Below are positions 9,700 through 26,380 of a DNA stretch of 32,000 bases, one piece after another (position 1 is the first letter of the stretch; each line of letters begins with the position of its first letter). The DNA is from Candidatus Saccharimonadota bacterium (lineage in GTDB: Bacteria; Patescibacteriota; Gracilibacteria; UBA4473). The notes under the pieces are model-generated. The model was not told where the DNA came from and searched no databases. It saw only the letters and a program-made list of their open reading frames with translations. The position numbers and the translations under genes are program-made. The DNA lies in the NCBI GenBank assembly GCA_965228485.1, contig OZ245819.1, positions 1,230,001 through 1,262,000 on the forward strand. The letters are read 5' to 3'.

Positions 9700-10486
9700 T
9701 TATTAAGGCATTAATAGCTGATTCTTTTCCAGCTTCGTACATAGTTTTTAGATTTTTGTTTCCGAGTGTGATCGACGAAAAATCTTCAAGATCTGGAGTT
9801 AACAAGATTACTCTATCATCTTTGGGAAAATGTTTTTGTTGATTTTGATAGATGATTCGAAAACTTCTTTGTACTACAGCAAATAAGTCTTGGCTTACCC
9901 CAAAGAATTTTTGAGTTCCAAAATCTTTTGGCAGGGGAGGAATGGTGGCGACATCAATTCCGACGATAGTTGATCCTTGGTAGTTCTGGATCATGTAATC
10001 TAGTGGGAAATTCTGAGAGAGAAATCCATCAGCTAAATGTCGCTTATAAACAGGGTGGAAAAATGGCTCAAATACTAGTGGAATGGCTAGAGAACTTCGA
10101 ACGGCATCGGCTATTTTTCCTTCTGTAATCAGTATTTGTTCTCCTGTGGCGAAATCAGTGGTTCCAATGGTTAATGGGATATCAAGGTCTTTAAAAGTTT
10201 TACCTTCATAAATTTCATCTAATAACTCATAGATTTTTTTTCCTTGAACGAGCCCTGTGTTGTTTAGTGAAAAGTCAAAAGCGAGATTAAATAGATTTGT
10301 ATTTTGAATAATTTTCCAAATTTCTTTGTGATTTTTCCCAAGGGCTATACCGGCTCCAACGATAGCGCCTGCCGATACTCCGCAGATAGCATCAAATTCA
10401 TATTTTTTTTCTAATATTTCTAGGCATCCTACATGAGCTATTCCTAGAGCGCCGCCTCCCGAAAGTACGAGTGCAGATTTATGCAT
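9689..10486 (-). CDS. Patatin-like phospholipase
   Basis: Oxyanion motif LSGGGALGIAHVG, nucleophile elbow GVSAGA (GxSxG), and a later DG(F) Asp dyad motif. Confidence 0.85.
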   Translation of the reverse strand: MHKSALVLSGGGALGIAHVGCLEILEKKYEFDAICGVSAGAIVGAGIALGKNHKEIWKIIQNTNLFNLAFDFSLNNTGLVQGKKIYELLDEIYEGKTFKDLDIPLTIGTTDFATGEQILITEGKIADAVRSSLAIPLVFEPFFHPVYKRHLADGFLSQNFPLDYMIQNYQGSTIVGIDVATIPPLPKDFGTQKFFGVSQDLFAVVQRSFRIIYQNQQKHFPKDDRVILLTPDLEDFSSITLGNKNLKTMYEAGKESAINALINGN

Positions 10487-10548
10487 CGTTATTTATTTTA
10501 TGTATTTCAAATTGGTTCGAAAGTTCTTTTTTCATATACTCATGTTCG

Positions 10549-12258
10549 ATGAAGACAATTTTCGTTCCTGGCTCTAAATCAATTACTAATAGAGTTTTGT
10601 TGCTTGCGGCCATTTCTGATAAACCGGTGGTTTTAAAGGGAGTTTTGGATTCGGATGATGCTCGTTATATGCAAGAAGCTTTGAAGACTTTTGGAGTGAA
10701 AATTGAATACTTGGGTAAAAATACATTGAAAGTTTATCCTGCTGAAGCCTTGAAGGCCAATGGTCAGGAAATATTTATTGGTAATGCTGGGACGGCTGCG
10801 AGATTTTTATCAGCTTTATCTTTGGTAGTGGAGGGACGTTATACTCTAACGGGAATAGAAAGAATGCAGGAAAGGCCTCAAGAAGACTTGATGAAGGCTC
10901 TGGAAGATTTGGGGGTAGGAATTGAATGTCATAAGAATGAAGGTTATTTACCAGCGAGTTTTTTGTCGAAAGAGGATATTGGAAGTGTGGTGAAGATTTC
11001 AGGAAAGGTTTCTTCTCAATTTTTATCGGGACTAATGTTGGTAGCGTCTCGCCTGGTAAAAGGTTTGACCATAGAGGTAGTAGATGGAATTCCTAGTCGT
11101 CCCTATATTGAGATGACTTTATCTATATTAAAAATTTGGGGTGTTAGATATAAAGTTAATAATGATTTTTCTCAGTTTGTGATTCATTCTGGGATTACAG
11201 CCCCTGAAGAATATCTTATCCCATCAGATATGAGTTCGGCAAGCTATCCTTTGCTCTGGTCGGTGCTTAGTGGAGAATCGATTTCTATTGAAAACTTTGG
11301 TTCACAGACATTGCAGGGAGACGAGCAGTTTTTAGAAGTCATAAAAACCGTAGGCGCTCAGGTGGAACGCAAAGGGGATCGATGTGTGGTTCAGCCTCCT
11401 GAAGAGCTTTTGCCCATGGGAGATTGGAATTGGGAATCGATGCCAGATGTAAGTATGACCGGGATGGTTCTAGCGGCTTTTTGTCCTGGTAAATCCAAAT
11501 TTACAGGTCTCGAAAGTTTAAGAGTTAAAGAGTGTGACCGAATTGTTGCTATGGAGCAATTGGCTGAAATTGGCGTATCGATAAAAGTGGATAAAGATGA
11601 GGTTGTAATTGAGGGACATGAATATCTGAAGCACATTAAATATGAAGCGCCTTTAGAAATAGATAGTTTTGATGATCATCGTATTGCAATGTGTTTTGGA
11701 GTGCTGAAGGCAGCACTTGATTGGGGATCCGATCCTTATCAGGAATCAGTTATTCGAATCCTAGAACCAGAATGCGTAGCTAAAACCTGGCCTAAATTCT
11801 GGCTTGAACTATCTGATTGGGAAGATCAGCTTAGGCCTGTTAGTGCGTTGGTTTTACACCGAATAGGAAGTAATTGTGGGAAAGATAAATATCTTATTGT
11901 TAAAAAACCAAGAAAAAATCACGCTTGGCAGTTTCCTCAGGGAGGTCAAGATGAGGGAGAAACGGCAAAACAAGCGGCTATCAGAGAATTACAGGAGGAG
12001 TGTGGAGAAACTTTGAATGCAAAAATAAAAGGAGAAAGACCTGTGGGAGAATATAAATATTTTTTCCCTTCAGATTTTGATCGTCATGATGACCGTATTG
12101 TTGGGGCGAAGGTTTCTTTTTTTCTCGCAGAGTTTATTAGTGGATCGGTAGAAGTAGATGGTAATGAAATCATCGACCATAAATGGGTAACCCTGGAAGA
12201 ATTTTCTGAATATTTTGAAGGTGAGTATCTAGAAGTTGTACAGGATTTTTTTGCCTAG
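10549..12258 (+). CDS. aroA: 3-phosphoshikimate 1-carboxyvinyltransferase (EPSP synthase) fused to a C-terminal Nudix hydrolase domain
   Basis: AroA motifs PGSKSITNRVLLLAA, GNAGTAARFL, KECDRIVAM and DDHRIAMCF. From about nt 11830 there is a Nudix fold with the box GGQDEGETAKQAAIRELQEECGE (about 11941-12010). The track start is a GTG at 10471 that overlaps the patatin gene. The ATG at 10549 (MKTIFVPGSK) is preferred. Confidence 0.85.
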   Translation: MKTIFVPGSKSITNRVLLLAAISDKPVVLKGVLDSDDARYMQEALKTFGVKIEYLGKNTLKVYPAEALKANGQEIFIGNAGTAARFLSALSLVVEGRYTLTGIERMQERPQEDLMKALEDLGVGIECHKNEGYLPASFLSKEDIGSVVKISGKVSSQFLSGLMLVASRLVKGLTIEVVDGIPSRPYIEMTLSILKIWGVRYKVNNDFSQFVIHSGITAPEEYLIPSDMSSASYPLLWSVLSGESISIENFGSQTLQGDEQFLEVIKTVGAQVERKGDRCVVQPPEELLPMGDWNWESMPDVSMTGMVLAAFCPGKSKFTGLESLRVKECDRIVAMEQLAEIGVSIKVDKDEVVIEGHEYLKHIKYEAPLEIDSFDDHRIAMCFGVLKAALDWGSDPYQESVIRILEPECVAKTWPKFWLELSDWEDQLRPVSALVLHRIGSNCGKDKYLIVKKPRKNHAWQFPQGGQDEGETAKQAAIRELQEECGETLNAKIKGERPVGEYKYFFPSDFDRHDDRIVGAKVSFFLAEFISGSVEVDGNEIIDHKWVTLEEFSEYFEGEYLEVVQDFFA

Positions 12259-15366: not shown

Positions 15367-16914
15367 ATGTACCTGATGAAGAAATCATTTGTGTTATTCG
15401 GTTTATTATGTGCAGGATTGGTTTTTGCCCAGGACGTGCCAGAAGAAGATGTAAGCCAGGAGCCGTTACCAGCCTCAGTAGAGGAATTAGATGAAGGGCA
15501 AATTGAACCAGTTATCATTGCTCCAGACAATATTAGCTTTGGAAGTGAGGCTATCTTTGATGCCAGTAGTTCCAAAATTATTTCGATATCTAATTACGGA
15601 AACCCTAGTTATTCATGGGATTTTGGTGATGACCAAGGAATTCAGTTTGGAGAGAAAGTCAAATATACTTTCACGGCTCCAGGATATTATGAAATTAGAC
15701 TTAATGTTCGTCAGGGACAGCAGAAAGAATCTATTAAAAAACAAGTTTTAGTTTATACTCGGCAATCGACTCTTATTGCGGATTCTTCTGGAGAACAAAT
15801 TTCAGCCGTTAAAGAAGAAGCGGCAAAAAAAGGTATTTGGCTCCAAGAGATTACGGTTCCGAACGATTCGAGTGATCTATCGACAGAAGATGTTTTTATT
15901 CAAAAATTCCAAGAAAACTTTGATGATTTAGAAGCTTCTGAAGTGATTATTTTTTATTCTAGTTCTTCTCGGGGTATTCAATCATTTGCTCAGTTTTGGA
16001 AGCGGTTGTCTCCGGAAGTGCGTTTTGATCTGACTAAAAAGTTGGTAGTTCAGATTTCTGAAGATTCTCTGGATCGTATCGCGAAGAGAACTCAACCAGT
16101 TTTTGAGATTCTTAGACCAGAATATATTTTGTTAACCAGGCCAGAGGCCATTAGCGTTATTTTTAATCAGAAAAAATTAGACCGAGTCCTTCCAAGCCTT
16201 GGAAGTAGGGCGATTGAATACCAAAGAGTTGATGCAAAAAGTCGAGTACCGATTTGGTTGCCATTTAGTCGTTTGTTGAGTTTCTTTTCTTCTCAAGGAC
16301 TTTCTCAGACTATTATTTATATTTTGCTTTCAGTGCCATTTGTCACTTTTGTTATTGCTTTCTTTAGGCAATTTGTGGGAGTTTCTACATTTGGAGTATT
16401 TGCTCCATTAATGCTTGCTTTGGCATTTTTGGTTTTAGGATTAAATTTCGGATTAATAGTGTTCTTGATGGTAATGTTGGTGAGTTATCTTATTCGAACT
16501 TTGTTTAATCGTGTGGAGTTGCTTTATATTCCGAAAGTTGCGCTTTTATTAAGTTGTCTGGCTTTGTCCTTTTTCCTTGTGTTGGGGCTGGCTGTATATT
16601 TCAGGGTTTCGCTAGACCTTTCGTTAGCAATTTTCCCAATGATGATGATGTCGACTATTTCGGAGAAGTTTTTGTCTTCTCAGTCCTCAGAGGGGATTAA
16701 GAGCGCGATTATTGCTGCCGTTGAAACTGTTTTGGTGTCTTTAATTGCTTACGCTTTAGTAGACTGGGATTTGGTGAAAGATAATATTTTGGCCATTCCC
16801 GAACTGATTCTTCTACCAATCATGGGGACTGTTTGGTTGGGACGATTTACAGGTTTGAGAGTTTCTGAATATATTAAGTTTCGAAGTTTATTACGTGAAG
16901 ATAGCCAAGAATAA
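15367..16914 (+). CDS. Secreted PKD-like domain plus 7TM membrane protein (related to the 7TM module normally fused to an inactive transglutaminase)
   Basis: Signal peptide KKSFVLFGLLCAGLVFAQD, then an acidic linker. The PKD-like signature is YSWDFGDD...KYTFTAPGYYEIRLNV (about 15517-15740). About 7 hydrophobic helices fill the last ~220 aa. Its stop overlaps the next ATG (TAATG). An alternative ATG lies at 15376. Confidence 0.8.
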   Translation: MYLMKKSFVLFGLLCAGLVFAQDVPEEDVSQEPLPASVEELDEGQIEPVIIAPDNISFGSEAIFDASSSKIISISNYGNPSYSWDFGDDQGIQFGEKVKYTFTAPGYYEIRLNVRQGQQKESIKKQVLVYTRQSTLIADSSGEQISAVKEEAAKKGIWLQEITVPNDSSDLSTEDVFIQKFQENFDDLEASEVIIFYSSSSRGIQSFAQFWKRLSPEVRFDLTKKLVVQISEDSLDRIAKRTQPVFEILRPEYILLTRPEAISVIFNQKKLDRVLPSLGSRAIEYQRVDAKSRVPIWLPFSRLLSFFSSQGLSQTIIYILLSVPFVTFVIAFFRQFVGVSTFGVFAPLMLALAFLVLGLNFGLIVFLMVMLVSYLIRTLFNRVELLYIPKVALLLSCLALSFFLVLGLAVYFRVSLDLSLAIFPMMMMSTISEKFLSSQSSEGIKSAIIAAVETVLVSLIAYALVDWDLVKDNILAIPELILLPIMGTVWLGRFTGLRVSEYIKFRSLLREDSQE

Positions 16915-19229
16915 TGATTTTTTCTACTAAGCGATCGGATATTCTTGGAATGAATGCGCGAAATTTACTTTATATTTCGCGGTTCAATTCTGCGGCAAAT
17001 AAAAAATTTGCAGATGATAAAATCTTTACAAAGCAGTTTCTAGAATCTCGTGGGGTTGGAGTGGCGAGGCTTTATCAGGTGGTAAAAAATCAACGCCAGT
17101 TAACGCATGATTTTTTTGAAAGCTTGCCCGACAGTTTTGTAATTAAGCCCAATAGAGGCTTTGCAGGAGCTGGGATTGTGGTGATTTCTCATAAAAAAGG
17201 AAATAAGTGGGTTACGGTTTCTGGTAAAAAATTGGATGAAGAATCTCTTTACTTGCAGTGTATTGATATCTTAGAGGGGAAATACTCTATTTCAGGGACT
17301 CATGATGATGTTATTTTTGAAGAAACATTAGCCCCTCATCCAGATTTTCGATTACTTACAAACATCGGACTTCCTGATGTTCGAGTGATTGTTTTTAACA
17401 TGGTGCCTGTAATGGCCATGCTTCGAGTTCCAACAGCAGAGTCTGATGGGAAAGCTAATATGGAGCTAGGAGCTATCGCAATGGGGATTGATATTGGTTC
17501 CGGTTTGACTACTGGAGCAGCTAAAAAATCAAAGTTTATCCGCAAAATGCCCAATGGAGAAAGTACAGAAGGATTTCTCATTCCATACTGGGATGATATT
17601 TTGTATGCAGTTTCCAAAATTCAGCAGGTTACTAAAATAGGTTTTTTGGGTGTTGATTTGGTAGTGACCAATACGGGAGTAAAAGTATTAGAAGTTAATG
17701 CTCGTCCAGGATTAAAAATCCAGGTAGCCAATCAAATTCCATTACAAAAAAGATTAGATAAAGTAGCTGATCTTAAAGTCCTAACTCCTGAAGAAGGAGT
17801 TGATGTTGCTAAGACTCTCTTTGCAGAAAAATCTGTATATGAAGCCAGTTTTATTCCTAAGCCAATTCTTGGAATGAAAGAGAATGTGCTTTTAAATTCA
17901 GATCCACCACAGAGTTTGGTAGCGCGTATGGCGCTTAATGAAGAACAGAATTTTATTAATAAGGAATTCTATGATGCAGATGAAAAAGTCTTGGATATTA
18001 CGATTGAAGGGAAACGATTAAAACTTCCAATTGAAAAAAGTAAAAAGAAACTAGATGATTGTGATTTAATCTTGGCTGGAAAATTTTTGAGTGATTTTTA
18101 TATCGACCCAAATAAACCTTTTGAAGAGGTTAACTTGGCGGCTGTTTCAACTCAGTCTGTAGATGAACGAATGCTGCGAAATCTTGATAATAAGATTGCT
18201 GAGATGGATTCTCAGATTAAGCTTTTATCTTATATTAATCCGCGAAATATTTCGGAGCAGAAGGCTGTCTTTTTGAGTAATCCAGAATTTTCACCTCGTT
18301 TCTATTATAAAGATTTGGATTTAGATTTCTCTTTGATGCGTCATGATCTTAAAAAACTTCCAGAGGTAAATCATGCGCTTTATCCACTCTATAAAAAGAA
18401 AATAGAAGAACTTGATTTTAAGCTTGCGATGCTTGAAGCTCGAAGTACAGATGATTTTTCTGGTTTTAGTGAGAAAGTATTTGGTCGAGTGACAAGACAT
18501 TTGTATCAGGAGGCTTTGAAATTCCTCAAGTCTCATGAAGGGAAGGTTCAACCTGATGAAAGCGAGGAATTGGACACTCGGAAAACAACAGAGATTTTGA
18601 AAGATTTCCTAAAGTCCCACAACCTTGGGCATTGGCAGATTAAGCTCGTAGATGATTCAGTAGCCGATATTCAGGTAACAAAACGTGATGCCATTCTTTT
18701 AAAGAAAGGTGCTAAATTTAGAAGAAATCGTTTAAAAGCTCTGCTGGTTCATGAAATTGGAACGCATGTATTTAGATATGAAAATGGGAAATTACAGCCA
18801 TTAAGGATTTTGGAGCGAGGAACGGCTGGATATCTTCGGACAGAAGAAGGTTTAGCGGTTTGGAATCAAAATCAATTAGGATTAGATTTAGGAGATAAAT
18901 TCTTAACCCCTGCTTACCAAATTGTCGCTTTATACGTGGCTCAGCGAATGGGATTTCAGGACCTCTTTCACTACTTGAAAGGGACTTTTGATATGCCTGA
19001 TGACTTGGCGTGGAAACTTTGTCTTAAAGCCAAAAGAGGGTTTGAGGATTCTAGTGTGAGGGGAGCTTTCACGAAAGACGCAATCTATTTTATGGGAGCT
19101 CGAGACATTGATCGATTTTTAGCTAAAGATGGAGATATTACCGATCTTTATGTTGGGAAAATTTCGATAGATGATCTTCCATTGGTTCAAAAAATAGAGG
19201 GATTAAGAGACCCTAAGTTTTTATTGTAA
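16914..19229 (+). CDS. Fusion protein: RimK-related ATP-grasp amidoligase (alpha-L-glutamate ligase-like) plus an HExxxH/EEGLA DUF1704 (MATCAP-like) carboxypeptidase domain
   Basis: N-terminal GMNARNLLYISRFN...DDKIFTKQFL...IKPNRGFAGAGI...GVDLV...VLEVNARPGL is the ATP-grasp part. The C-terminal part starts near nt 18156 with INPRN...NPEFSPRFYY, HEIGTH (18750-18767) and TEEGLAVW (18840-18863). Confidence 0.85.
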   Translation: MIFSTKRSDILGMNARNLLYISRFNSAANKKFADDKIFTKQFLESRGVGVARLYQVVKNQRQLTHDFFESLPDSFVIKPNRGFAGAGIVVISHKKGNKWVTVSGKKLDEESLYLQCIDILEGKYSISGTHDDVIFEETLAPHPDFRLLTNIGLPDVRVIVFNMVPVMAMLRVPTAESDGKANMELGAIAMGIDIGSGLTTGAAKKSKFIRKMPNGESTEGFLIPYWDDILYAVSKIQQVTKIGFLGVDLVVTNTGVKVLEVNARPGLKIQVANQIPLQKRLDKVADLKVLTPEEGVDVAKTLFAEKSVYEASFIPKPILGMKENVLLNSDPPQSLVARMALNEEQNFINKEFYDADEKVLDITIEGKRLKLPIEKSKKKLDDCDLILAGKFLSDFYIDPNKPFEEVNLAAVSTQSVDERMLRNLDNKIAEMDSQIKLLSYINPRNISEQKAVFLSNPEFSPRFYYKDLDLDFSLMRHDLKKLPEVNHALYPLYKKKIEELDFKLAMLEARSTDDFSGFSEKVFGRVTRHLYQEALKFLKSHEGKVQPDESEELDTRKTTEILKDFLKSHNLGHWQIKLVDDSVADIQVTKRDAILLKKGAKFRRNRLKALLVHEIGTHVFRYENGKLQPLRILERGTAGYLRTEEGLAVWNQNQLGLDLGDKFLTPAYQIVALYVAQRMGFQDLFHYLKGTFDMPDDLAWKLCLKAKRGFEDSSVRGAFTKDAIYFMGARDIDRFLAKDGDITDLYVGKISIDDLPLVQKIEGLRDPKFLL

Positions 19230-20912
19230 TTACATCTTTGCTGGAATCTCTATCCCGAGGATTTTGAGTCCTGTTTCGAGTACGTCTAGTACTTTTGAAG
19301 CGAGGATAATTCTTGCATTTCTTAGCTTTACAGTATCAGCATTAAGTACGGAGTTGTCGGCATAAAAACTCGACCAAGTTTGAGCGAGTTCTAGTAGGTA
19401 GGTGACAATGTAGGTTGGGTTTTTTGTGTTAACAGCCTTATTTAAAATTTCTGGCCATTCCATGATTTTTACTCCCAGTGGTTTTTCTGCTTCTCCTAGG
19501 ACATTAAAATCAACGGTTTGTTCTATGTTATTAGCTTTTTCTAGGATAGATTTAATTCGAACACCTGCATACTGTAGATACGGTCCAGTAGCTCCGTGAA
19601 AGTCGATAGATTTTTCGGCATCAAAAGTAATATCTTTATTGGGAGAAGTTCTGAGTAGGAAAAACTTCCAGGCAGCATTTTGAACTTTTTCAGCTATTTC
19701 ATGAATAGTATTTTCAGCAAATTCTGGTTTTGTTTCTTGGATTTTTTTCCTGACTAATTCATGAAGTTCATCCATCAAATTATCCGCATCAACGACGGTT
19801 CCTTCTCGGGATTTCATTCGTCCATCGGGAAGGTTTACGAGACCGTAATTTAGATGATAGCATTTATTAGCTTCCATAATGCCAAGTCTGTCCAGACACT
19901 CAAATAAGACTTGGAAATGATAGTTTTGTTCACTGGCAGTTGTGTAGATGAGACTATCTGGGTGATTGAAATCTTTGTCTCGATTTACGGCGACAGCCAA
20001 ATCTTGAGTTAGATAGACAGAAGTTCCATCAGATCGAAGAATTACCTTTTGGCCAAGTTGTTCGTCTTCAAAATTTATGACAATAGCTCCATCATCTCGA
20101 GTTTCAAAAACACCTCTTTTGAGACCTTCTTGGGCAATATTTTTTCCTTCTAAATAATAATCAGATTCTTTATAACTTTTCTCGAATTTTATACCTTGCC
20201 TGTCATAGGTTTTTTGGTGTCCATCCAAAGTCCAATCGTTCATTTTTTTCCAGGTTTCTCGAACCTCAATATCTCCGGCCTCCCATTTTTGGAGCATGGT
20301 TTGTACTTCAGTATTAAGTTCTTCGTTGTTTTTTGATTCTTGATCAAATTTTACATAGTAACGCCCAACAAGCGCATCACTTTTTTCTCCCGTGTCTTCT
20401 GGAGTTTCTCCATTCCCAAATTGTTGATAGGCGAGTATGGATTTACAGATATGTACCCCTCGGTCATTAATAATATTCACTCGGTGAACTTTTGCCCCAG
20501 CCGCTTCCAGTAGATTTGAAACAGAAAGGCCTAGGGCATGATTTCTCATATGTCCAAGGTGCAGAGGTTTATTGGTATTTGGTCCAGAAAACTCAATAAC
20601 AATTTCCTGATTTTTCAGTAATTTACTTCTTAGCGAAACATTTGTTACGGCACTAAAAAAAGCTTCATTACTGAAATATAGATTTAGGTAGGGACCAGCA
20701 ATTTCAGTTTTTTCTACGAGTTCAAAGTTTTCTAATATTTTTTCTACTTCCTGAGCAATTTCAACAGGAGATTTTTTCAGTTTTTTTGTAAGAGCAAAGA
20801 ATTGCATCGCTAAATCTCCAGACTGCCCTTTTGGAACGGCTGAGAATTGGATCTTTTGTGCGGAATCTTTGTTCCAGTTTTTTTCGAGAAATTGTTGTAC
20901 TTGCTTCTGCAT
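19230..20912 (-). CDS. argS: Arginine--tRNA ligase
   Basis: HIGH-type motif PNTNKPLHLGHMRN, overall class I ArgRS layout, and a C-terminal anticodon-binding DALR-like helical region. Confidence 0.95.
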   Translation of the reverse strand: MQKQVQQFLEKNWNKDSAQKIQFSAVPKGQSGDLAMQFFALTKKLKKSPVEIAQEVEKILENFELVEKTEIAGPYLNLYFSNEAFFSAVTNVSLRSKLLKNQEIVIEFSGPNTNKPLHLGHMRNHALGLSVSNLLEAAGAKVHRVNIINDRGVHICKSILAYQQFGNGETPEDTGEKSDALVGRYYVKFDQESKNNEELNTEVQTMLQKWEAGDIEVRETWKKMNDWTLDGHQKTYDRQGIKFEKSYKESDYYLEGKNIAQEGLKRGVFETRDDGAIVINFEDEQLGQKVILRSDGTSVYLTQDLAVAVNRDKDFNHPDSLIYTTASEQNYHFQVLFECLDRLGIMEANKCYHLNYGLVNLPDGRMKSREGTVVDADNLMDELHELVRKKIQETKPEFAENTIHEIAEKVQNAAWKFFLLRTSPNKDITFDAEKSIDFHGATGPYLQYAGVRIKSILEKANNIEQTVDFNVLGEAEKPLGVKIMEWPEILNKAVNTKNPTYIVTYLLELAQTWSSFYADNSVLNADTVKLRNARIILASKVLDVLETGLKILGIEIPAKM

Positions 20913-20949
20913 CGGAGGAAATTATTCGTTTTTTTAAGTGAAAATCAAT

Positions 20950-22173
20950 TTACTTTGAATTCAACTTTGTTACCTGAGAGACTCCCAAAAGAGAAAGCCC
21001 TGCCATTAGAAAAAGTGTGATAAAGAGCCATTGTGGACCTTCTGGGAAAATATAAAACAGCGGAATAAAGATGAAAAAAGGGATAATATAGGCGGTTTCA
21101 ATAATCCACCATCGAATATGAGATCTTTCGTAGGTGTCTTTTTCGTGAAGCCATTTATAGATTTCATTATCGTGAGGAACACCAATAGACTGCCAGTTTA
21201 CTTTGTAGAAGAAATCTATAGACAGAACCGCTAGAGGAAAAAAGGAAGCTGCTCGGCAGAGGTTGATGAGACTCCCTCTTAAAGCTCCTTTTTTTAGGAG
21301 TGATTTTGTGGATTTCTGTTTTTGGTCAATTTTTTTCCCAATGGAATAGGCAATTATCATCGATAGTAATGATGAAACTCCAATTAAAATGCTCATTGAG
21401 AGCAGATTTTTTACAACTAGAACAAGAAATAATGGCCAAATAATCCAGAGTACTGCATCCTGAAATACCCATGCAGCCTGGGAAGTGTAGAGGGCTTTGG
21501 GAGTGTTTTTAATAGTATCAACCGCAAGCTTTTTTGGGGTATAGGGTACTTTTATTTTTTCGTCTGGCGTAAACATTAAGACAATTCCCCCACAAAGGAA
21601 GAATCCGACGGCAGCATAAGAAGCAATGGAAATTCCATATTGGGTAGTTAGAAAGGCTCCGACGATTGGAGCTAGTAGTGCGGCCATAAGAATAGCAATC
21701 TGAAGATAAGCGATAATTTTTCCGGATCGTTCACGGTTAAGATGATGAGTGAGAAATATATCGTATGAAATCTCAAATAAAACCATTCCAAAGGCTCGTG
21801 CCGCTAAAAAGGGGACCATATGTATAAGGTCTTGATTGAAATTTCCAGTCATAATAATTGGAATCGATAGCCAAAAAATAGACGAAGTTATTGTCATAAT
21901 GGCCATGGAGTGTTTCAGTCCGAGATGTTGAATAAACCAACCGACAAAAGGATGGACTACCGCAAATAGAGTTTGCCACACAAGGTAGAATGTACAAATC
22001 TGCCAGATCTCATAGTTTAGACTTGTATAAAGGTAAAAGGGAAGTGCCAATGAAAGCATGCTTTTTCCCAAATTTCTGAATAGTTGGAATAGTCCTAATT
22101 CCAATAGCTCTGCATCCATGTGTAGGTGGAAGAGATGATGAAAATTGGAGTTAGGGGATTTGTATCGAGTCAT
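20950..22173 (-). CDS. MFS-like polytopic transporter, paralog A
   Basis: 11-12 predicted TM helices. Clear full-length similarity to the 30174-31448 product (FHHLFHL, LNY.(I/L)WQIC, GLKHS, SYDIFL(T/S)HHLN, LLQIAI, TPDEK, YKW(L/I).EK(D/N)T.ERSH). Confidence 0.7.
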   Translation of the reverse strand: MTRYKSPNSNFHHLFHLHMDAELLELGLFQLFRNLGKSMLSLALPFYLYTSLNYEIWQICTFYLVWQTLFAVVHPFVGWFIQHLGLKHSMAIMTITSSIFWLSIPIIMTGNFNQDLIHMVPFLAARAFGMVLFEISYDIFLTHHLNRERSGKIIAYLQIAILMAALLAPIVGAFLTTQYGISIASYAAVGFFLCGGIVLMFTPDEKIKVPYTPKKLAVDTIKNTPKALYTSQAAWVFQDAVLWIIWPLFLVLVVKNLLSMSILIGVSSLLSMIIAYSIGKKIDQKQKSTKSLLKKGALRGSLINLCRAASFFPLAVLSIDFFYKVNWQSIGVPHDNEIYKWLHEKDTYERSHIRWWIIETAYIIPFFIFIPLFYIFPEGPQWLFITLFLMAGLSLLGVSQVTKLNSK

Positions 22174-22191
22174 TTTATAAGGAGTATAGTC

Positions 22192-22821
22192 TTACTTTTT
22201 GGTTTCTACTAAAGTTTTTGAGCCAAAGAAAATAAGCATAATACCAATGACTTGCTCAAGGCATTTCATCCGATTTTGAAGGAATATTTGTACTTGCTGA
22301 ACGCTAAATATTTTGGTTATAAAAGCTAAGTAAATCATTGTATTTAGTGGAAGTAAAATACAGATGATTATCTTTATATTTAAAGGTGTTGTTGGAGGAA
22401 GAACAATAGCAAAAATACTTACAAATGCCATAATCGGTTCTATATTAAAAAGATTAGCAATAGCCCCCATTTGGAATGCTTTTTTGGGATGAATCATTTT
22501 TTTTGTTTTTTTACTTTTTTGAGATTTAAGATTTTTAGCATTTCGAAAAAAACTTCCTCCAAGATATATGAGATAGAGGGCTCCAATAGTTTTTATTCCT
22601 GCTAAGAGGTTTGGATTTTGGCTGATGATGATACTTAGGCCTGTCATCGCGAGAAGACAGTGTAAGAAGGTAATAAATCCAATTCCTAAAACGGTAAAAT
22701 AACCTATATGAATAGAATATTTTAGAGTGTTTCTTGTGACAATAGCAAAGTCTTGTCCTGGGGTAATAATTGATAAAAAATCGATGATGGCGATGGTGAG
22801 AACTAGAGAGAGAGTTGACAT
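22192..22821 (-). CDS. LysE/RhtB-family amino-acid exporter
   Basis: About 6 TM helices and the N-terminal FLSIITPGQDF motif region typical of LysE/ArgO-type exporters. The track start is a TTG at 22857 inside argH. The ATG at 22821 sits 1 nt after the argH stop. Confidence 0.75.
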   Translation of the reverse strand: MSTLSLVLTIAIIDFLSIITPGQDFAIVTRNTLKYSIHIGYFTVLGIGFITFLHCLLAMTGLSIIISQNPNLLAGIKTIGALYLIYLGGSFFRNAKNLKSQKSKKTKKMIHPKKAFQMGAIANLFNIEPIMAFVSIFAIVLPPTTPLNIKIIICILLPLNTMIYLAFITKIFSVQQVQIFLQNRMKCLEQVIGIMLIFFGSKTLVETKK

Positions 22822-22822
22822 G

Positions 22823-24133
22823 TTATAGTTGGTTAAGCTTGTTTCTGAGTTTTTCAAGTCCGAGATTTCCCGTAGCTCCTAAGTGTGTTTTTGATTTTAG
22901 GTTTTTAAAAATTTCTTCTTTGGTCACTGGTTCTGTTTTAAGTTCTTCTAATTCTTCTTTTACCTTTAGATAGGCTTCTCTAAAAGGCATCCCTTGTGCG
23001 ACAAGATTATTGGCCTTATCTGCGGCAAAGATTGTTGGGTCAAAGGCTTCTATGAGTCTCGATTCATTTGGAGTGATGTTGTCGATTAGCGCTTGGCTAA
23101 TTTGGAGCATGTTTTGGACAGTTTTAATACTTTCCATAGTTGGTTCTTTTGAAAGCTGTAAATCTCTGTGATACCCCGAAATTAAATTTGTAGTAAGATG
23201 TTTTAATGTGCTTTCATAACCCAAGATTTTAGCGTGTGAAGCCCTTAGAAGTTCGGCTGGATCTAGATTTTTCTTTTGTGGCATGATGGAGGACCCTGTA
23301 GTAAGCTCATCCTTAACGGTGAAAAACTGGAATTGAGAACTTGTGTACAAAACAAGATCATTGGCGAAGAGTGCGAGTGTTGAGCTGAGGTTACTGAGGT
23401 GGCTGACTAGATCAGCTTCAATTTTTCCTCTGGTATTTTGTGAAGTGAGGCTGATAGTTAGACAGTCATCAAACCCTAGCTTTCTTGCGGTTTCTTCTCT
23501 TGGAAGATCGAAATCAACTCCGAATCCAGCCGCCGAACCCAAGGGGCAAAGGTTAAAATTATTTCTAAAATTTATTAGTTCTTGAAGATTGAGAATGGAC
23601 ATTTCTGCAAAACTTCCAGCCCACATTCCAGCACTTGAAGGCATGGCTACTTGGGTATGAGTAAATCCAGGCATGGGCATGAATTCGTATTTATTAGAAA
23701 AGTTTAAAAATAGTTGAGCTAAATTTTTTGTTGAATAAATAATTTGATCAATATTTTCTCTTTGCCAAAGTCTTGTGGAGACTAGGACTTGGTCATTTCT
23801 AGATCTTCCAGTATGAATTTTTTTACCTATTTCTCCCAGCTCTTTAACGAGATATTCTTCAATAGCGGTATGACCATCTTCTTGTGATTTTTGAATTTCA
23901 AATTTTTGGTTTTGATGTAGTTCTAAGATTTCGAGTAATACAGTTTTAATCTTTTTCAATTCGTTAGGATTTAAAATCCCAATTTTTTGAAGCCCTTCCG
24001 CGTGAGCGATTGAAGCTTGAATGTCATAGGGAATTAATTCTGAATCAAGAATATAGTCATTTCCTACCGTAAAATCTTCGATGAGTTGAGTTAGGTTGGA
24101 ATGATGGTTGGAGTCGGTTTGCCAGAGTTTCAT
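22823..24133 (-). CDS. argH: Argininosuccinate lyase
   Basis: Fumarate-lyase signature GSSIMPQKKNLDPAELLR, TGRSRNDQV and HTQVAMPSS. Confidence 0.95.
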   Translation of the reverse strand: MKLWQTDSNHHSNLTQLIEDFTVGNDYILDSELIPYDIQASIAHAEGLQKIGILNPNELKKIKTVLLEILELHQNQKFEIQKSQEDGHTAIEEYLVKELGEIGKKIHTGRSRNDQVLVSTRLWQRENIDQIIYSTKNLAQLFLNFSNKYEFMPMPGFTHTQVAMPSSAGMWAGSFAEMSILNLQELINFRNNFNLCPLGSAAGFGVDFDLPREETARKLGFDDCLTISLTSQNTRGKIEADLVSHLSNLSSTLALFANDLVLYTSSQFQFFTVKDELTTGSSIMPQKKNLDPAELLRASHAKILGYESTLKHLTTNLISGYHRDLQLSKEPTMESIKTVQNMLQISQALIDNITPNESRLIEAFDPTIFAADKANNLVAQGMPFREAYLKVKEELEELKTEPVTKEEIFKNLKSKTHLGATGNLGLEKLRNKLNQL

Positions 24134-24144
24134 GATTTATAGTT

Positions 24145-25419
24145 TTAATTTTTATTGAATTCGTTCTCCCAATCATACATTCCAAAGGCTGTTTTTTGTG
24201 GAAGATTCCAGAGTTCAATGAATCCTGCTGCGGCATTTTGATTAAAATCTGTCGATTTATTAAATGTGGCTAGGTTTTCGTTGAATAAAGAGTGAGGAGA
24301 GCTTAGTGAAAGGATGGTTACTTGTCCTTTGTAGCATTTTACTTTTACGGTTCCCGTTACTTTTTTATTCATGCTGTTTTGGAAGGCATGAATGTGGTAC
24401 ATCACAGGATCATACCATTTGGCTGCGTAACACAGATAAGCCCATTTGGTATCCATAAAAACTTTTAATTCGTTTTCCTCTCTTGTAGAGACGAGCTTTT
24501 CAAGTTTTTTATGAGCTTCAATCAAGATGGTTGCTCCAGGATTTTCGTAAACGCCTCTGACTTTTAACCCGACAAATCTATCTTCGATGAGAGGAAAGAT
24601 TCCTATGCCATGTTTTGCTCCAATATTATTACACTGCGCAATGAGGTTCATGAGTTTATCTTTTTTCCCGTTTAGAGCGATAGGGATTCCTTTTTCAAAT
24701 TCTATTTCTAGATATTCTGACTTTTCTGGAGCTTCTTCTGGTGTGTTGCACCACTGAATAATGTTTTCAAACTTTGGTTCGAGTTCTGGGTTTTCAATTT
24801 CTCCTCCTTCTCCCGTGTTTCCCCACATATTCTCGTCATAAGAATAGGGTTTATCATTAGATTGTTTTACAGGGATGTTGTGTGACTTACAAAACTCGAT
24901 TTGTTCGTCTCTCCCCATGCTCCATTCTCTTACAGGAGCTATGGTTTTCAGCTTTGGATTAAGCGTTGTTATATAGCCTTCAAATCTTACTTGATCGTTT
25001 CCTTTTCCTGTGCATCCATGAGCAATTACTGAACAATTATTTTGTTCGGCTAGTTTGACGGCTACTTTAGCAATCATAACTCTTCCTAAGGGGGTTGATA
25101 GTGCGTACCCGCCCTGATAGTCAGCATTAGCTTTGATCGCTTCGCTGAGTAGAATATCAGCAAATTCTTCTTTGGCGTCATAGACGATAGCTTCTTTAGC
25201 TCCAAGTGATAGTGCTTTTTGTTTTATAGCTTCAAGGTTATCGGCCGTTTGTCCAAGATCTATGGTAAGAGCAATAACATCACACTGATATTCATCTTGA
25301 ATCCATTTTAGCATCGTAGATGTGTCGAGTCCTCCAGAATAGAGGAGAAGGCAGGTATCGAATGATCCTTTTTCGGCTTCATGTGAAGCCGTTTTGAGAT
25401 AAGTAGTAGTAGATTTCAT
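24145..25419 (-). CDS. argG: Argininosuccinate synthase
   Basis: LLLYSGGLDTSTML (ATP PP-loop), HGCTGKGNDQVRFE and YSYDENMWG motifs. Confidence 0.95.
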   Translation of the reverse strand: MKSTTTYLKTASHEAEKGSFDTCLLLYSGGLDTSTMLKWIQDEYQCDVIALTIDLGQTADNLEAIKQKALSLGAKEAIVYDAKEEFADILLSEAIKANADYQGGYALSTPLGRVMIAKVAVKLAEQNNCSVIAHGCTGKGNDQVRFEGYITTLNPKLKTIAPVREWSMGRDEQIEFCKSHNIPVKQSNDKPYSYDENMWGNTGEGGEIENPELEPKFENIIQWCNTPEEAPEKSEYLEIEFEKGIPIALNGKKDKLMNLIAQCNNIGAKHGIGIFPLIEDRFVGLKVRGVYENPGATILIEAHKKLEKLVSTREENELKVFMDTKWAYLCYAAKWYDPVMYHIHAFQNSMNKKVTGTVKVKCYKGQVTILSLSSPHSLFNENLATFNKSTDFNQNAAAGFIELWNLPQKTAFGMYDWENEFNKN

Positions 25420-25795: not shown

Positions 25796-25814
25796 AATTT
25801 ACTTTTATTAGTTA

Positions 25815-26237: not shown

Positions 26238-26252
26238 AGTTAATAAATAGAT

Positions 26253-26378: not shown

Positions 26379-26380
26379 GG

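What the first reader, a model, noticed from the sequence alone, without database searches (positions are those of the whole stretch)
16914..19229. Writer and eraser in one polypeptide: ATP-grasp amidoligase fused to an HExxxH/EEGLA (MATCAP-like) carboxypeptidase
Seen in the sequence:
- This is a single uninterrupted 771-codon ORF.
- Residues ~1-300 show ATP-grasp motifs.
- A linker of roughly 100 aa with no recognisable motif follows (about 17870-18150).
- From about nt 18156 come INPRN...NPEFSPRFYY, HEIGTH (18750-18767) and TEEGLAVW (18840-18863).

Established knowledge:
- The DUF1704 / 'QEGLA-motif' family carries an HExxxH metal site close to a QEGLA motif.
- Its animal member MATCAP removes the C-terminal tyrosine of alpha-tubulin.
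- The opposing tubulin tyrosine ligase and glutamylases are ATP-grasp enzymes.

Inference: fusing the two antagonistic activities is a bacterial analogue of a tyrosination/detyrosination-type cycle. Alternatively, the peptidase processes a substrate to expose the residue that the ligase then extends. I do not know of this fusion being characterised.
Basis: partly seen in the sequence, partly recalled or inferred. Interest (0 to 1): 0.8.

Follow-up and report, generated by a model that had tools for sequence, protein, structure and literature searches.

The report
Ligase, dead protease, MATCAP peptidase fusion
One bacterial gene fuses an amino-acid-adding enzyme to a relative of the human enzyme that trims tubulin tails, with the remnant of an older, now inactive protease between them, and the neighbouring membrane protein, whose tail almost always ends in glutamate, is the likely target.

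Summary
ORF 16914-19229 is one 771-codon gene with an ATP-grasp ligase domain at the N-terminus and a MATCAP/DUF1704 zinc carboxypeptidase domain at the C-terminus. Catalytic motifs are conserved in 114 full-length homologues.

- The "motif-less linker" is a degenerate retropepsin-like domain of the RloA/RimB kind that has lost its Asp-Thr-Gly. Most Patescibacteria relatives carry the ligase fused to an active retropepsin. Some add a separate MATCAP gene, and two loci fuse all three domains with DTG kept.
- The gene is the second of a two-gene operon, behind an RloB-like 7TM membrane protein. This is a CPR version of the Pseudomonas rlo / rimK-rimB ligase-peptidase systems.
- Where the retropepsin is dead and MATCAP is present, the 7TM protein ends in Glu (119 of 120 homologues). 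Elsewhere the tails are mostly basic.

My best model is that the ligase extends this cytoplasmic -E(E) tail, or polymerises glutamate on it, and the MATCAP domain trims it back. No activity has been measured. The fusion is common in CPR bacteria but I found no characterisation of it. I rate it a new variant of a known kind.

The parts
15367..16914 (+). Gene 1 of the operon: a 515-aa RloB-like membrane protein. It has a signal peptide (res 1-24), a PKD domain (res 50-121), an ectodomain of unknown fold, and a 7TM_transglut domain (res 313-508).
   Evidence: Pfam 7TM_transglut PF14402 E 2.4e-29 and PKD_4 E 1.7e-10. Weak match to NF052267 RloB. A homologous 7TM gene lies directly upstream of the ATP-grasp gene in nearly all 80 related loci.
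16849..16911 (+). Predicted cytoplasmic C-terminal tail of the 7TM protein (TGLRVSEYIKFRSLLREDSQE), ending in Glu (codon 16909-16911). This is the proposed acceptor and substrate.
   Evidence: 119 of 120 homologues (38-100% identity) end in E: 69 -EE, 42 -QE, 5 -AE, with 1-5 terminal Glu. Among related loci, 17 of 19 fused loci end in E, against 5 of 59 unfused loci.
16912..16916 (+). TAATG stop/start overlap joining the 7TM gene and the fusion gene.
   Evidence: Sequence read directly. dut lies divergently upstream, and argS ends at 19230 on the other strand, so the operon has exactly two genes.
16914..19229 (+). Gene 2: a 771-aa three-domain protein made of an ATP-grasp ligase, a dead retropepsin-like domain and a MATCAP-like zinc carboxypeptidase.
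   Evidence: AlphaFold2 model: mean pLDDT 89.1, pTM 0.75.
16929..17828 (+). RloC/RimK-type ATP-grasp domain (res 6-305). Motifs include KPNRG (17145-17159) and LEVNARPG (17688-17711).
   Evidence: PF14397 E 4e-56. TIGR02291 scores 234.7 bits, below its 314 cut-off. K78, E136, D248, E260, N262 and G266 are invariant in 66 sequences. Foldseek matches RimK 5zct at E 8.6e-9 and ArgX 3vpb with TMt 0.61.
17856..18113 (+). Degenerate retropepsin-like (RloA/RimB-type) domain, res 315-400.
   Evidence: hhalign against the DTG-bearing C-terminal domains of unfused relatives gives prob 97.6%, E 3.9e-12. Trimmed to the domain alone it gives prob 96.6%, E 5e-10. The AF2 model of the region has pLDDT 81.7. 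Its top Foldseek PDB hits are RloA2 9g59 (E 5.6e-5), RloA 9g58 and DUF785 2pma, then Ddi1 and HIV proteases. There is no direct Pfam or PDB sequence hit.
17922..17942 (+). Position equivalent to the retropepsin catalytic motif AK(I/V)DTGA. Here it reads ARMALNE, so the catalytic Asp-Thr-Gly is lost.
   Evidence: Alignment. None of 114 full-length fusion homologues has D[TS]G at this site, whereas 58 of 59 unfused relatives have a D[TS]G.
18186..19226 (+). MATCAP/DUF1704 (QEGLA-family) zinc carboxypeptidase domain, res 425-771. It is preceded by a long helix (res 408-434).
   Evidence: PF08014 E 4.9e-47. TIGR02421 scores 172 bits, below its 338 cut-off. The profile matches human MATCAP 7z5g at E 1.1e-21. 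Foldseek to 7z5g: E 1.5e-13, TMt 0.62.
18750..18767 (+). HEIGTH, the HExxxH zinc-binding and catalytic motif.
   Evidence: H613 and E614 are invariant and H618 is at least 90% conserved. The motif aligns to HEIGTH of human MATCAP.
18840..18857 (+). TEEGLA motif, which carries the third metal ligand (a Glu of the EEG motif).
   Evidence: E644, E645 and G646 are invariant. The motif aligns to TEEGLA of human MATCAP.

Best explanation
This is a two-gene operon of a CPR/Patescibacteria bacterium. It is a remodelled version of the rloBC / rimK-rimB type ligase-peptidase systems.

Gene 1 encodes an RloB-like 7TM membrane protein. Its short C-terminal tail, predicted to be cytoplasmic, ends in glutamate.

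Gene 2 encodes one cytoplasmic polypeptide with three domains:
- an RloC/RimK-like ATP-grasp ligase;
- a retropepsin-like domain that has lost its catalytic Asp-Thr-Gly;
- a MATCAP-family zinc carboxypeptidase with an intact HExxxH...EEG site.

Shown here: the domain identities, the loss of DTG, conservation of both remaining active sites, the operon structure, the evolutionary series, and the co-occurrence of 'dead retropepsin + MATCAP' with a Glu-terminal 7TM tail. The series runs from ligase+active retropepsin, to the same plus a separate MATCAP gene, to a triple fusion with DTG kept, to a triple fusion with DTG lost.

Inferred: the ligase adds amino acids to the free alpha-carboxyl of the tail's terminal Glu. 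Glutamate is the most likely residue, by analogy with RimK acting on ribosomal protein S6 (which ends in -EE). The MATCAP domain removes the added residues one at a time from the C-terminus, taking over the job of the lost endopeptidase. The dead retropepsin domain survives as a scaffold, a dimerisation module or an acidic-tail-binding module. The length of the tail would then set the state of the 7TM protein, whose own function (envelope or osmotic homeostasis in Pseudomonas) is unknown.
For: Architecture and active sites.

Dead retropepsin domain.

Rlo kinship:
- The Ectothiorhodospiraceae locus L079 has canonical RloB (PF14400+PF14402) next to an ATP-grasp that scores 456 bits on TIGR02291.
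- The Patescibacteria ATP-grasp tails hit NF052264 RloA3 and PF05618.
- The 7TM gene is adjacent in about 80 loci.

Functional link between MATCAP and the ligase:
- Fusion in 21 loci, counting L019 and L021 read with code 25.
- A separate MATCAP gene in or near the operon in L020, L033, L042, L039, L048, L049, L052 and L062.
- An independent association with a GshB-like ATP-grasp in alpha-proteobacteria and in Photobacterium (PMC10308900).

Substrate clue:
- Terminal Glu in 119 of 120 homologues of the 7TM protein, while the penultimate residue varies.
- All 19 fused loci with a dead retropepsin, plus L052, end in E. The two fused loci that keep DTG end -KSS and -KSA, and 54 of 59 unfused loci do not end in E.
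- The terminal Glu persists where the stop-to-start gap is 45-81 nt, and in L019, where the 7TM gene lies downstream of the fusion gene. A ribosome-binding-site constraint is therefore unlikely to explain it.

Precedents:
- RimK extends S6 -EE and RimB trims it. RloA cleaves polyE, and rloB/rloC deletions suppress the rloA1-3 phenotype (PMC12239564).
- MATCAP-family enzymes remove C-terminal Tyr and also shorten polyglutamate chains (PMC10499314).
- The closest structural ATP-grasp matches, RimK and ArgX/LysX, act on C-terminal Glu residues of proteins. The matches are; their substrates are from my own knowledge.
Against: - No biochemical data exist for any member. The amino acid added and the acceptor are pure inference.
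- The fused, dead-retropepsin, E-tail loci are mostly one clade, so the correlation rests on few independent events: the clade, L052, and perhaps L019/L021.
- L030 has an acidic -EEDEEE tail with an active DTG and no MATCAP gene in the locus, so the rule is not strict.
- In unfused relatives the tails are basic. If the 7TM tail were the universal acceptor of this ligase family, a conserved acceptor residue would be expected there too.
- Cytoplasmic location of the tail is inferred from the signal peptide, the ectodomain and seven TM helices (RloB topology in PMC12239564). It was not computed with a dedicated predictor.
- Both NCBIfam equivalog cut-offs are missed, so function cannot simply be transferred.
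Confidence: 0.5

Rival explanations
1. Free-polymer homeostasis. The ATP-grasp domain polymerises free glutamate (or another amino acid) into poly-alpha-glutamate-like peptides, as RimK does in vitro. The MATCAP domain degrades them from the C-terminus. The 7TM protein exports, anchors or senses the polymer, and its tail is at most a primer or docking site rather than the regulated substrate.
For: - RimK makes free poly-alpha-Glu.
- The RloA paper raises glutamate/polyglutamate homeostasis as a possible role, and glutamate is an osmolyte (PMC12239564).
- A proteobacterial QEGLA gene is induced 27-fold at low salinity next to a GshB-like ligase (PMC10308900).
- Unfused relatives have basic tails that could not accept residues RimK-style but could bind an acidic polymer.
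Against: It does not explain why the terminal residue of the 7TM protein is Glu in 119 of 120 homologues while neighbouring positions vary. It also does not explain why that feature appears together with the switch from an endopeptidase to a carboxypeptidase.
Confidence: 0.22
2. Another protein is the substrate. The ligase and peptidase act on a different cytoplasmic protein with an acidic C-terminus (for example ribosomal protein S6, as for RimK). The 7TM protein only regulates or localises the enzyme.
For: - The only proven bacterial acceptor for this enzyme class is S6 (PMC12239564).
- The ATP-grasp fold is closest to RimK.
- A second, RimK-like ATP-grasp gene sits in many related loci, which hints at more complex chemistry.
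Against: The 7TM gene is strictly adjacent to the ligase gene in about 80 loci, and its tail co-varies with the type of peptidase. No S6 gene or other candidate lies in the operon or the window.
Confidence: 0.1
3. Processing then extension. The carboxypeptidase first trims a precursor to expose the residue that the ligase then extends, so the two activities are sequential rather than antagonistic.
For: Tubulin is encoded as -EEY and must be detyrosinated before further modification (PMC10499314). Nothing measured here excludes a sequential order.
Against: The candidate tail is already encoded with a terminal Glu, in 1-5 copies, and nothing follows it that would need removal. In the parent systems (RimK/RimB, RloC/RloA) genetics and biochemistry show antagonism (PMC12239564).
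Confidence: 0.05
4. Carrier-protein chemistry. The terminal Glu of the 7TM tail serves, like LysW in the LysX/ArgX pathway, as a covalent carrier for a small amine-containing metabolite. The ATP-grasp attaches the metabolite and the metallopeptidase releases it.
For: ArgX/LysX are among the best structural matches of the ligase domain (TMt 0.61-0.62, rmsd 3.5-3.8 A). From my own knowledge, that pathway also ends with a metallopeptidase releasing the product from a C-terminal Glu.
Against: No biosynthetic enzymes that would act on a tethered intermediate are in the operon. By sequence the ligase is RloC/RimK-like, not LysX-like.
Confidence: 0.04
5. The terminal Glu is a nucleotide-level by-product. 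The GAA GAA codons before the stop would be conserved as a purine-rich ribosome-binding site for the overlapping downstream gene, so the tail says nothing about the substrate.
For: In most fused loci the stop lies within 12 nt of the downstream ATG or overlaps it. 16 of the 17 E-terminal tails in fused loci use GAA as the last codon.
Against: - The terminal E(E) is kept with 45-nt and 81-nt gaps (L001, L007).
- It is kept in L019, where the 7TM gene is downstream of the fusion gene.
- The penultimate codon varies (Q, A, N, K, S) while the last residue stays Glu.
- Unfused loci with the same gene coupling have different tails.
Confidence: 0.06

Closest known systems
rloABC operon of Pseudomonas aeruginosa: RloA secreted retropepsin-like peptidase, RloB inactive-transglutaminase 7TM protein, RloC ATP-grasp (PMC12239564)
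   Same: - The ATP-grasp family is the same (PF14397/TIGR02291).
- The 7TM family (PF14402) is the same, and its gene is adjacent to the ligase gene.
- A retropepsin-fold domain of the RloA type is part of the system.
- The logic of a ligase opposed by a peptidase is the same.
   Different: - The retropepsin is not a secreted separate protein. It is an internal, catalytically dead domain of the cytoplasmic ligase protein.
- A MATCAP-family zinc carboxypeptidase has been added.
- The 7TM protein carries a PKD ectodomain instead of the inactive transglutaminase domain, and it has a Glu-terminal tail.
- Both NCBIfam cut-offs (RloB model, TIGR02291) are missed.
RimK-RimB (S6 C-terminal polyglutamylation and its reversal) in Pseudomonas and E. 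coli (PMC12239564 and references in it)
   Same: - A cytoplasmic ATP-grasp adds Glu to a protein C-terminus ending in -EE.
- A partner peptidase removes the added residues.
- The ligase fold is closest to RimK.
- In the Patescibacteria relatives ligase and retropepsin are even fused.
   Different: - The ligase belongs to the RloC branch rather than the RimK family proper (TIGR00768 scores only 42.7 bits against a cut-off of 143).
- A membrane-protein partner is present.
- The active peptidase is a zinc carboxypeptidase, not an aspartic endopeptidase.
- The substrate is unproven.
MATCAP/TMCP1 (KIAA0895L) and TMCP2 (KIAA0895), the tubulin detyrosinase/deglutamylases of animals (PDB 7z5g; PMC10499314)
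   Same: - The domain is homologous, with identical HEIGTH and TEEGLA motifs.
- The fold is the same (Foldseek E 1.5e-13).
- The proposed action on an acidic C-terminal tail ending in -EE, opposite an ATP-grasp ligase, mirrors TTL/TTLL.
   Different: - 22-24% identity over the Foldseek alignments.
- No tubulin or microtubule-binding context.
- Covalently fused to its presumed antagonist.
- Specificity for Tyr versus Glu is unknown.
[quoted passage not shown]
   Same: Same peptidase family. These genes are also genomically coupled to an ATP-grasp gene: an FGase-like / QEGLA / GshB-like trio in Aminobacter and Pararhizobium, and neighbouring locus tags in Photobacterium (PMC10308900).
   Different: - The partner ligase is a GshB-like ATP-grasp (PRK12458), not RloC-like.
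- The genes are separate.
- No 7TM partner is present.
- The QEGLA protein there has a different N-terminal extension of about 240 aa.

Membership tests
ATP-grasp amidoligases, RloC / TIGR02291 / Pfam ATPgrasp_ST branch | Sequence match to the family model above its curated threshold | tested here: inconclusive
   Pfam PF14397 scores 190.6 bits against a gathering score of 31.4, so that test is met. NCBIfam TIGR02291 scores 234.7 bits against a cut-off of 314.2, so that test is not met. The canonical proteobacterial neighbour L079 scores 455.9.
ATP-grasp amidoligases, RloC / TIGR02291 / Pfam ATPgrasp_ST branch | Conserved nucleotide- and Mg-binding residues (Lys in KPN, acidic hinge, D...E-x-N) | tested here: met
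   K78, E136, D248, E260 and N262 are invariant, and R264 is at least 90% conserved, in 66 fusion proteins. Assigning these residues to catalytic roles rests on general knowledge of ATP-grasp enzymes.
ATP-grasp amidoligases, RloC / TIGR02291 / Pfam ATPgrasp_ST branch | ATP-grasp fold | tested here: met
   The model has pLDDT 89. Foldseek matches RimK 5zct at E 8.6e-9, ArgX 3vpb with TMt 0.61, and also Ddl and cyanophycin synthetase.
ATP-grasp amidoligases, RloC / TIGR02291 / Pfam ATPgrasp_ST branch | Gene adjacent to an RloB-type 7TM gene | tested here: met
   The two genes overlap as TAATG in the window. The same pairing is seen in about 80 loci.
ATP-grasp amidoligases, RloC / TIGR02291 / Pfam ATPgrasp_ST branch | ATP-dependent amide-bond formation | not testable with these tools
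   Needs an enzyme assay.
MATCAP / DUF1704 / QEGLA (PF08014, TIGR02421) zinc carboxypeptidases | Sequence match to the family model above its curated threshold | tested here: inconclusive
   PF08014 scores 161.1 bits against 27, so that test is met. TIGR02421 scores 172.4 bits against 338.65, so that test is not met.
MATCAP / DUF1704 / QEGLA (PF08014, TIGR02421) zinc carboxypeptidases | HExxxH motif plus a downstream (E/Q)EG(L)A motif that supplies the third metal ligand | tested here: met
   HEIGTH is at res 613-618 and TEEGLA at res 643-648. Both are invariant or nearly so across homologues and align to the same motifs of human MATCAP.
MATCAP / DUF1704 / QEGLA (PF08014, TIGR02421) zinc carboxypeptidases | MATCAP fold | tested here: met
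   Foldseek top hits are 7z5g and 7z6s: E 1.5e-13, TMt 0.62.
MATCAP / DUF1704 / QEGLA (PF08014, TIGR02421) zinc carboxypeptidases | Carboxypeptidase activity on an acidic C-terminal tail (tubulin for the animal enzymes) | not testable with these tools
   Needs an enzyme assay. No tubulin context is known for these bacteria.
Retropepsin-like aspartic peptidases of the RloA/RimB type (PF05618 'Zn_protease', DUF785) | Direct sequence match to the family model | tested here: not met
   None of 34 linker sequences matches PF05618 even at E up to 10. The linker profile gives no PDB sequence hit to RloA.
Retropepsin-like aspartic peptidases of the RloA/RimB type (PF05618 'Zn_protease', DUF785) | Homology to bona fide members by profile-profile comparison, and the same fold | tested here: met
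   hhalign to the DTG-bearing domains gives E 3.9e-12, or 5e-10 when trimmed. Those domains in turn hit PF05618, NF052264 and RloA2 9g59 at E 6e-12. The linker model's top Foldseek hits are RloA2, RloA and 2pma.
Retropepsin-like aspartic peptidases of the RloA/RimB type (PF05618 'Zn_protease', DUF785) | Catalytic Asp-Thr/Ser-Gly | tested here: not met
   The site reads ARMALNE in the window. None of 114 fusion homologues keeps D[TS]G there. The domain is therefore a relative of this family, not an active member.
RloB (inactive transglutaminase fused to 7TM; NF052267, PF14400+PF14402), for the upstream gene | 7TM_transglut domain | tested here: met
   PF14402 scores 103 bits against 25.
RloB (inactive transglutaminase fused to 7TM; NF052267, PF14400+PF14402), for the upstream gene | N-terminal inactive transglutaminase domain (PF14400) and the NCBIfam cut-off | tested here: not met
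   There is no PF14400 hit; a PKD domain is present instead. NF052267 scores 61.7 bits against a cut-off of 900. L079 has both domains.

The most novel reading that the evidence does not exclude
A bacterial 'tail code'. The cytoplasmic C-terminal tail of a 7TM envelope protein would be reversibly lengthened and shortened (polyglutamylated or tyrosinated-like) by a single polypeptide. That polypeptide would carry the writer (ATP-grasp), a former eraser turned reader or scaffold (dead retropepsin) and the current eraser (MATCAP domain). This prokaryotic ligase/carboxypeptidase pairing on -EE tails would be the evolutionary source of the eukaryotic MATCAP/TTL(L) tubulin-tail cycle.
Probability: 0.3. 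Interest if true: 0.85.

Novelty: new variant of a known kind. Interest (0 to 1): 0.66.

Why it matters
What the RloC-type ligases and their partner peptidases act on is an open question. [quoted passage not shown]

The CPR variant found here points to a concrete candidate. The tail of the RloB-like partner is Glu-terminal in 119 of 120 homologues, and this appears exactly where the peptidase is a carboxypeptidase. The proteins are soluble and the tail peptide can be synthesised, so the hypothesis can be tested directly.

The finding also places the MATCAP family, known only as tubulin detyrosinases/deglutamylases, in a prokaryotic ligase-peptidase system. Two different ATP-grasp lineages are recruited to it, which bears on where the tubulin-tail enzymes came from.

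Finally, it is a clean example of one peptidase displacing another inside a multidomain enzyme, with the intermediates still present in extant genomes.

Tried and rejected
- **Direct tests of the linker.** I tested it against Pfam (each of 34 members, E up to 10) and against PDB sequences with a profile. Neither gave a retropepsin hit. The link emerged only through the unfused relatives and the fold search.
- **Genetic code.** I considered that the ORF or its neighbours might be misread because relatives are labelled Gracilibacteria (code 25). In the window TGA is used as a stop, and the genes are intact with code 11. Only L019 and L021 need code 25.
- **Ribosome-binding-site explanation for the terminal GAA GAA.** I judged it unlikely.
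- **Source record.** I looked for the window's own record by exact protein look-up. It is not on record. The organism is therefore known only as a CPR bacterium related to MAGs labelled Gracilibacteria and Peribacteria.
- **Iyer et al. 2009 (Mol Biosyst 5:1636).** This paper defined these Pfam families, but it is not held in the library. What I say about it rests on my own knowledge.
- **Promoter/terminator scan upstream of the operon.** It gave nothing above chance.
- **Window contents.** No separate retropepsin, second ATP-grasp or S6 gene is in the window.

Full report
**1. The observation**

The ORF at 16914..19229 (+) is a single 771-codon frame with an ATG start and a TAA stop.
- Pfam finds ATPgrasp_ST (PF14397) at residues 16-284 (E 4e-56) and MATCAP (PF08014, formerly DUF1704) at residues 458-761 (E 5e-47).
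- NCBIfam finds TIGR02291 'alpha-L-glutamate ligase-like protein' at residues 6-304 and TIGR02421 'QEGLA motif protein' at residues 425-761. Both score below their equivalog cut-offs.
INPRN starts at 18234, about 80 nt later than stated.

The fusion is not an assembly artefact. Of the 120 best hits in a 5.8-billion-protein search, 114 are full-length (44-100% identity) and come from many independent genomes and metagenomes. They are annotated at most as 'DUF1704 domain-containing protein', 'tyrosine/phenylalanine carboxypeptidase domain-containing protein' or 'alpha-L-glutamate ligase-like protein/TIGR02421 family'.

Both catalytic sites are under selection. K78, E136, D248, E260 and N262 of the ligase, and H613, E614, E644, E645 and G646 of the peptidase, are invariant in a 66-sequence alignment.

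**2. Homology to the named families**

- A profile of the fusion proteins matches human MATCAP (KIAA0895L; PDB 7z5g, 7z5h, 7z6s) at E 1e-21. HEIGTH, TEEGLA, KRG and F(T/S)KD..Y all align.
- An AlphaFold2 model built on the alignment is confident (mean pLDDT 89.1, pTM 0.75).
- Its best PDB matches are human MATCAP (Foldseek E 1.5e-13, TMt 0.62).
- For the N-terminal domain the best matches are RimK (5zct, E 8.6e-9), ArgX/LysX (TMt about 0.61), cyanophycin synthetase and D-Ala-D-Ala ligases.

**3. The 'linker' is a dead retropepsin**

Residues about 315-400 are conserved across the fusion proteins and fold into a beta-rich domain. Direct searches of this region against Pfam and PDB sequences found nothing. 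The answer came from relatives.

A scan of one genome per species returned 80 loci, essentially all Patescibacteria/CPR MAGs. I scanned their ORFs with HMMs built from the window's own domains.
- In 59 loci the homologous ATP-grasp protein is 430-500 aa long. It ends in a domain that Pfam calls Zn_protease (PF05618) or Asp_protease_2, and that NCBIfam matches to the retropepsin-like peptidase RloA3.
- 58 of these 59 proteins contain a D[TS]G; in nearly all it sits in the AK(I/V)DTGA context.
- Their profile hits the crystal structures of RloA2 (9g59, E 6e-12) and RloA (9g58).
- Profile-profile comparison of the window's linker family with these domains gives 97.6% probability and E 3.9e-12 over 108 columns.
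- Trimmed to the domain proper, the comparison still gives 96.6% and E 5e-10 over 83 columns.
- An independent AlphaFold2 model of the linker (pLDDT 81.7) has RloA2, RloA and the Legionella DUF785 protein 2pma as its top Foldseek hits. Ddi1 and retroviral proteases follow.

The catalytic AKIDTGA aligns with ARMALNE in the window (17922-17942). None of the 114 full-length fusion homologues has D[TS]G at this position. The domain is therefore a relative of RloA/RimB that cannot be an aspartic peptidase.

**4. Context**

- The fusion gene is the second gene of a two-gene operon.
- The upstream gene (15367-16914) overlaps it as TAATG.
- It encodes a 515-aa protein with a signal peptide, a PKD domain and a 7TM_transglut domain (PF14402), and it matches the RloB model weakly.
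- dut lies divergently upstream, and argS abuts the fusion gene's stop codon on the other strand.
- The rest of the window is housekeeping.
- The 7TM gene lies directly upstream of the ATP-grasp gene in nearly all 80 loci.
- A gammaproteobacterial locus recovered by the same scan (L079) shows the canonical pair: RloB (Transglut_i_TM + 7TM_transglut) followed by an ATP-grasp scoring 456 bits on TIGR02291.

The window's system is therefore a CPR relative of the rlo operon described in Pseudomonas aeruginosa in 2025. There, RloA is a secreted retropepsin-like peptidase that cleaves polyglutamate in vitro. RloB is an inactive-transglutaminase 7TM protein and RloC is a cytoplasmic ATP-grasp. Deleting rloB or rloC suppresses the defects of the rloA1-3 mutant. 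The authors liken the operon to RimK/RimB, which add and remove glutamates at the -EE C-terminus of ribosomal protein S6 (PMC12239564).

**5. An evolutionary series**

The related loci show four stages.
- (a) ATP-grasp fused to an active retropepsin. This is the state in most Patescibacteria.
- (b) The same, plus a separate MATCAP-family gene in or near the operon. In L020 it lies directly downstream. In L033 and L042 it lies upstream of the 7TM gene. In L039, L048, L049 and L062 it lies within a few kb.
- (c) ATP-grasp + retropepsin that keeps 'RIDTGEG' + MATCAP in one ORF (L017, L018).
- (d) ATP-grasp + dead retropepsin + MATCAP (window, L001-L016). L019 and L021 join this group when read with genetic code 25.

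In a neighbour-joining tree of the ligase domains, the 17 stage-(d) members included in it (L019 and L021 were not) form one clade. L017/L018 branch elsewhere, as does L052, which has a dead retropepsin and a separate MATCAP gene.

An exhaustive HMMER search with the MATCAP domain against 1.84 billion cluster representatives gave these counts:

| E-value limit | Clusters |
|---|---|
| 1e-3 | 2,644 |
| 1e-10 | 1,675 |
| 1e-30 | 275 |

Of the best 150 hits, 31 are at least 700 aa long with the domain at about 400-800. The fusion is thus a well-diversified minority architecture.

MATCAP-family genes are also coupled to a different ATP-grasp in Proteobacteria:
- Plasmids of Aminobacter and Pararhizobium carry a three-gene row: an FGase-like gene, a QEGLA gene, then a GshB-like (PRK12458) ligase.
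- In Photobacterium the QEGLA gene and a neighbouring 'GshB' gene are strongly induced at low salinity (PMC10308900).

The peptidase family has therefore partnered with ATP-grasp ligases at least twice.

**6. A candidate substrate**

I compared the C-termini of the 7TM partners:

| Locus class | 7TM C-terminus |
|---|---|
| Fused, read with code 11 (19 loci) | 17 end in Glu (15 -EE, 2 -QE) |
| L017, L018 (fused, DTG kept) | -KSS, -KSA (the two exceptions above) |
| L019, L021 (fused, code 25) | -KREE, -FQEEE |
| L052 (dead retropepsin, separate MATCAP gene) | -DPEE |
| Unfused (59 loci) | 5 end in Glu; most are Lys/Arg-rich |

Among the 120 best database homologues of the window's 7TM protein (38-100% identity), 119 end in Glu. 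The single exception looks truncated.
- The endings are -EE (69), -QE (42), -AE (5) and -NE, -KE, -SE (one each).
- The number of terminal glutamates ranges from 1 to 5.
- The four to six residues before the end vary freely.

For comparison, about 8% of all long ORFs in these loci end in Glu.

A nucleotide-level explanation (a purine-rich ribosome-binding site for the overlapping downstream gene) is unlikely.
- The terminal EE is kept where the gap to the next start is 45 nt (L001) or 81 nt (L007).
- It is kept in L019, where the 7TM gene lies downstream of the fusion gene.
- The penultimate codon varies.

The tail should be cytoplasmic. The protein has a signal peptide and an ectodomain followed by seven TM helices, and RloB is described with its N-terminal domain in the periplasm (PMC12239564). 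I did not run a dedicated topology predictor.

**7. Mechanism proposed**

*Shown:* the three-domain anatomy, the intact ligase and zinc-peptidase sites, the loss of the aspartic site, the operon partner, and the co-occurrence of a Glu-terminal partner tail with the 'carboxypeptidase-only' state.

*Inferred:*
- The ATP-grasp domain extends the tail's terminal Glu. Glutamate is the most likely residue added, because the ligase is RloC/RimK-like and RimK needs the -EE end of S6.
- The MATCAP domain trims the added residues from the C-terminus. MATCAP-family enzymes remove C-terminal Tyr and also shorten polyglutamate chains (PMC10499314).
- An endopeptidase such as RloA needs at least eight glutamates (PMC12239564). 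A carboxypeptidase needs only a free C-terminus. This difference would explain why the swap of peptidases coincides with a partner protein that presents a free acidic end.
- The dead retropepsin probably persists as a structural, dimerising or acidic-tail-binding module. That point is speculation.

I give the whole model a probability of about 0.5. The antagonistic ligase/peptidase logic is more likely than that, and the identity of the acceptor less so.

The rivals are:
- free poly-glutamate homeostasis;
- a different protein substrate such as S6;
- sequential processing followed by extension;
- LysW-like carrier chemistry;
- a nucleotide-level artefact.

They are listed separately with their evidence.

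**8. Novelty**

The library search found no paper that links MATCAP/DUF1704 to ATP-grasp enzymes or to prokaryotes, and none on QEGLA function. From my own knowledge, the Pfam families for the ligase and the 7TM protein come from Iyer et al. 2009, which predicted peptide-modification systems with a retropepsin. I could not read that paper here.

The fusion exists in public annotation, but I found no characterisation of it. Three things appear to be new:
- the middle domain is identified as a dead retropepsin;
- the displacement series is reconstructed from extant loci;
- the Glu-terminal tail of the 7TM partner is recognised.

The system belongs to a known kind (Rim/Rlo-type ligase-peptidase pairs) with a different eraser. 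I therefore class it as a new variant of a known kind.

Noticed in passing
L083 4040-4996; L084 214-1041; L005 3149-4162; L009 1044-2009; L025, L029, L034, L040, L043, L045, L047, L058, L064, L078 downstream of the ATP-grasp gene; L049 and L051 7384-9327: Many related loci carry a second, RimK-like ATP-grasp gene of about 320 aa. It lies upstream of the 7TM gene in some fused loci and downstream of the ligase-retropepsin gene in unfused ones. In L049 and L051 it is duplicated in tandem within one ORF. None is present in the window. This hints at two ligase steps (initiation/elongation, or two different amino acids).
   Followed up: partly
L017 5980-8253; L018 5995-8400: These triple-domain proteins keep a DTG ('RIDTGEG') in the retropepsin domain together with an intact MATCAP site. 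Their 7TM partners end in -KSS and -KSA rather than Glu. L018 also has a second, separate MATCAP-like gene at 9069-10535 (-).
   Followed up: partly
L081 4451-8195 (Aminobacter pAA02); L085 2436-6207 (Pararhizobium pPspA13a): An alpha-proteobacterial operon runs: N-formylglutamate-amidohydrolase-like gene, a long QEGLA protein (620-630 aa, with an N-terminal extension of about 240 aa of unknown nature), then a GshB-like ATP-grasp (PRK12458). This is a second, independent coupling of the MATCAP family to an ATP-grasp ligase.
   Followed up: partly
window 10471-12258 (+): EPSP synthase (aroA) is fused to a C-terminal NUDIX hydrolase domain in one 595-aa ORF.
   Followed up: no
window 19230-27295 (-): A run of arginine-related genes in a small CPR genome: argS, an MFS transporter, a LysE-type exporter, a Lyase_1 (argininosuccinate-lyase-like) gene and argininosuccinate synthase. 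An amino-acid kinase family gene follows at 26381-27295.
   Followed up: no
window (whole); L019, L021: TGA serves as a stop codon in the window (4 of 26 long ORFs end in TGA, and genes are intact with code 11), although the closest relatives are labelled Gracilibacteria. L019 and L021 read as full-length fusion genes only with code 25 (TGA = Gly).
   Followed up: yes
window 27475-28482 (-) and 28660-29805 (+): An SLH-domain protein and a protein with PG_binding_1 repeats lie side by side. These are cell-envelope proteins.
   Followed up: no
L030 5087-6004: This is an exception to the tail rule. The unfused locus has an active DTG retropepsin and no MATCAP gene in the fetched stretch, yet its 7TM protein ends in -EEDEEE.
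   Followed up: no
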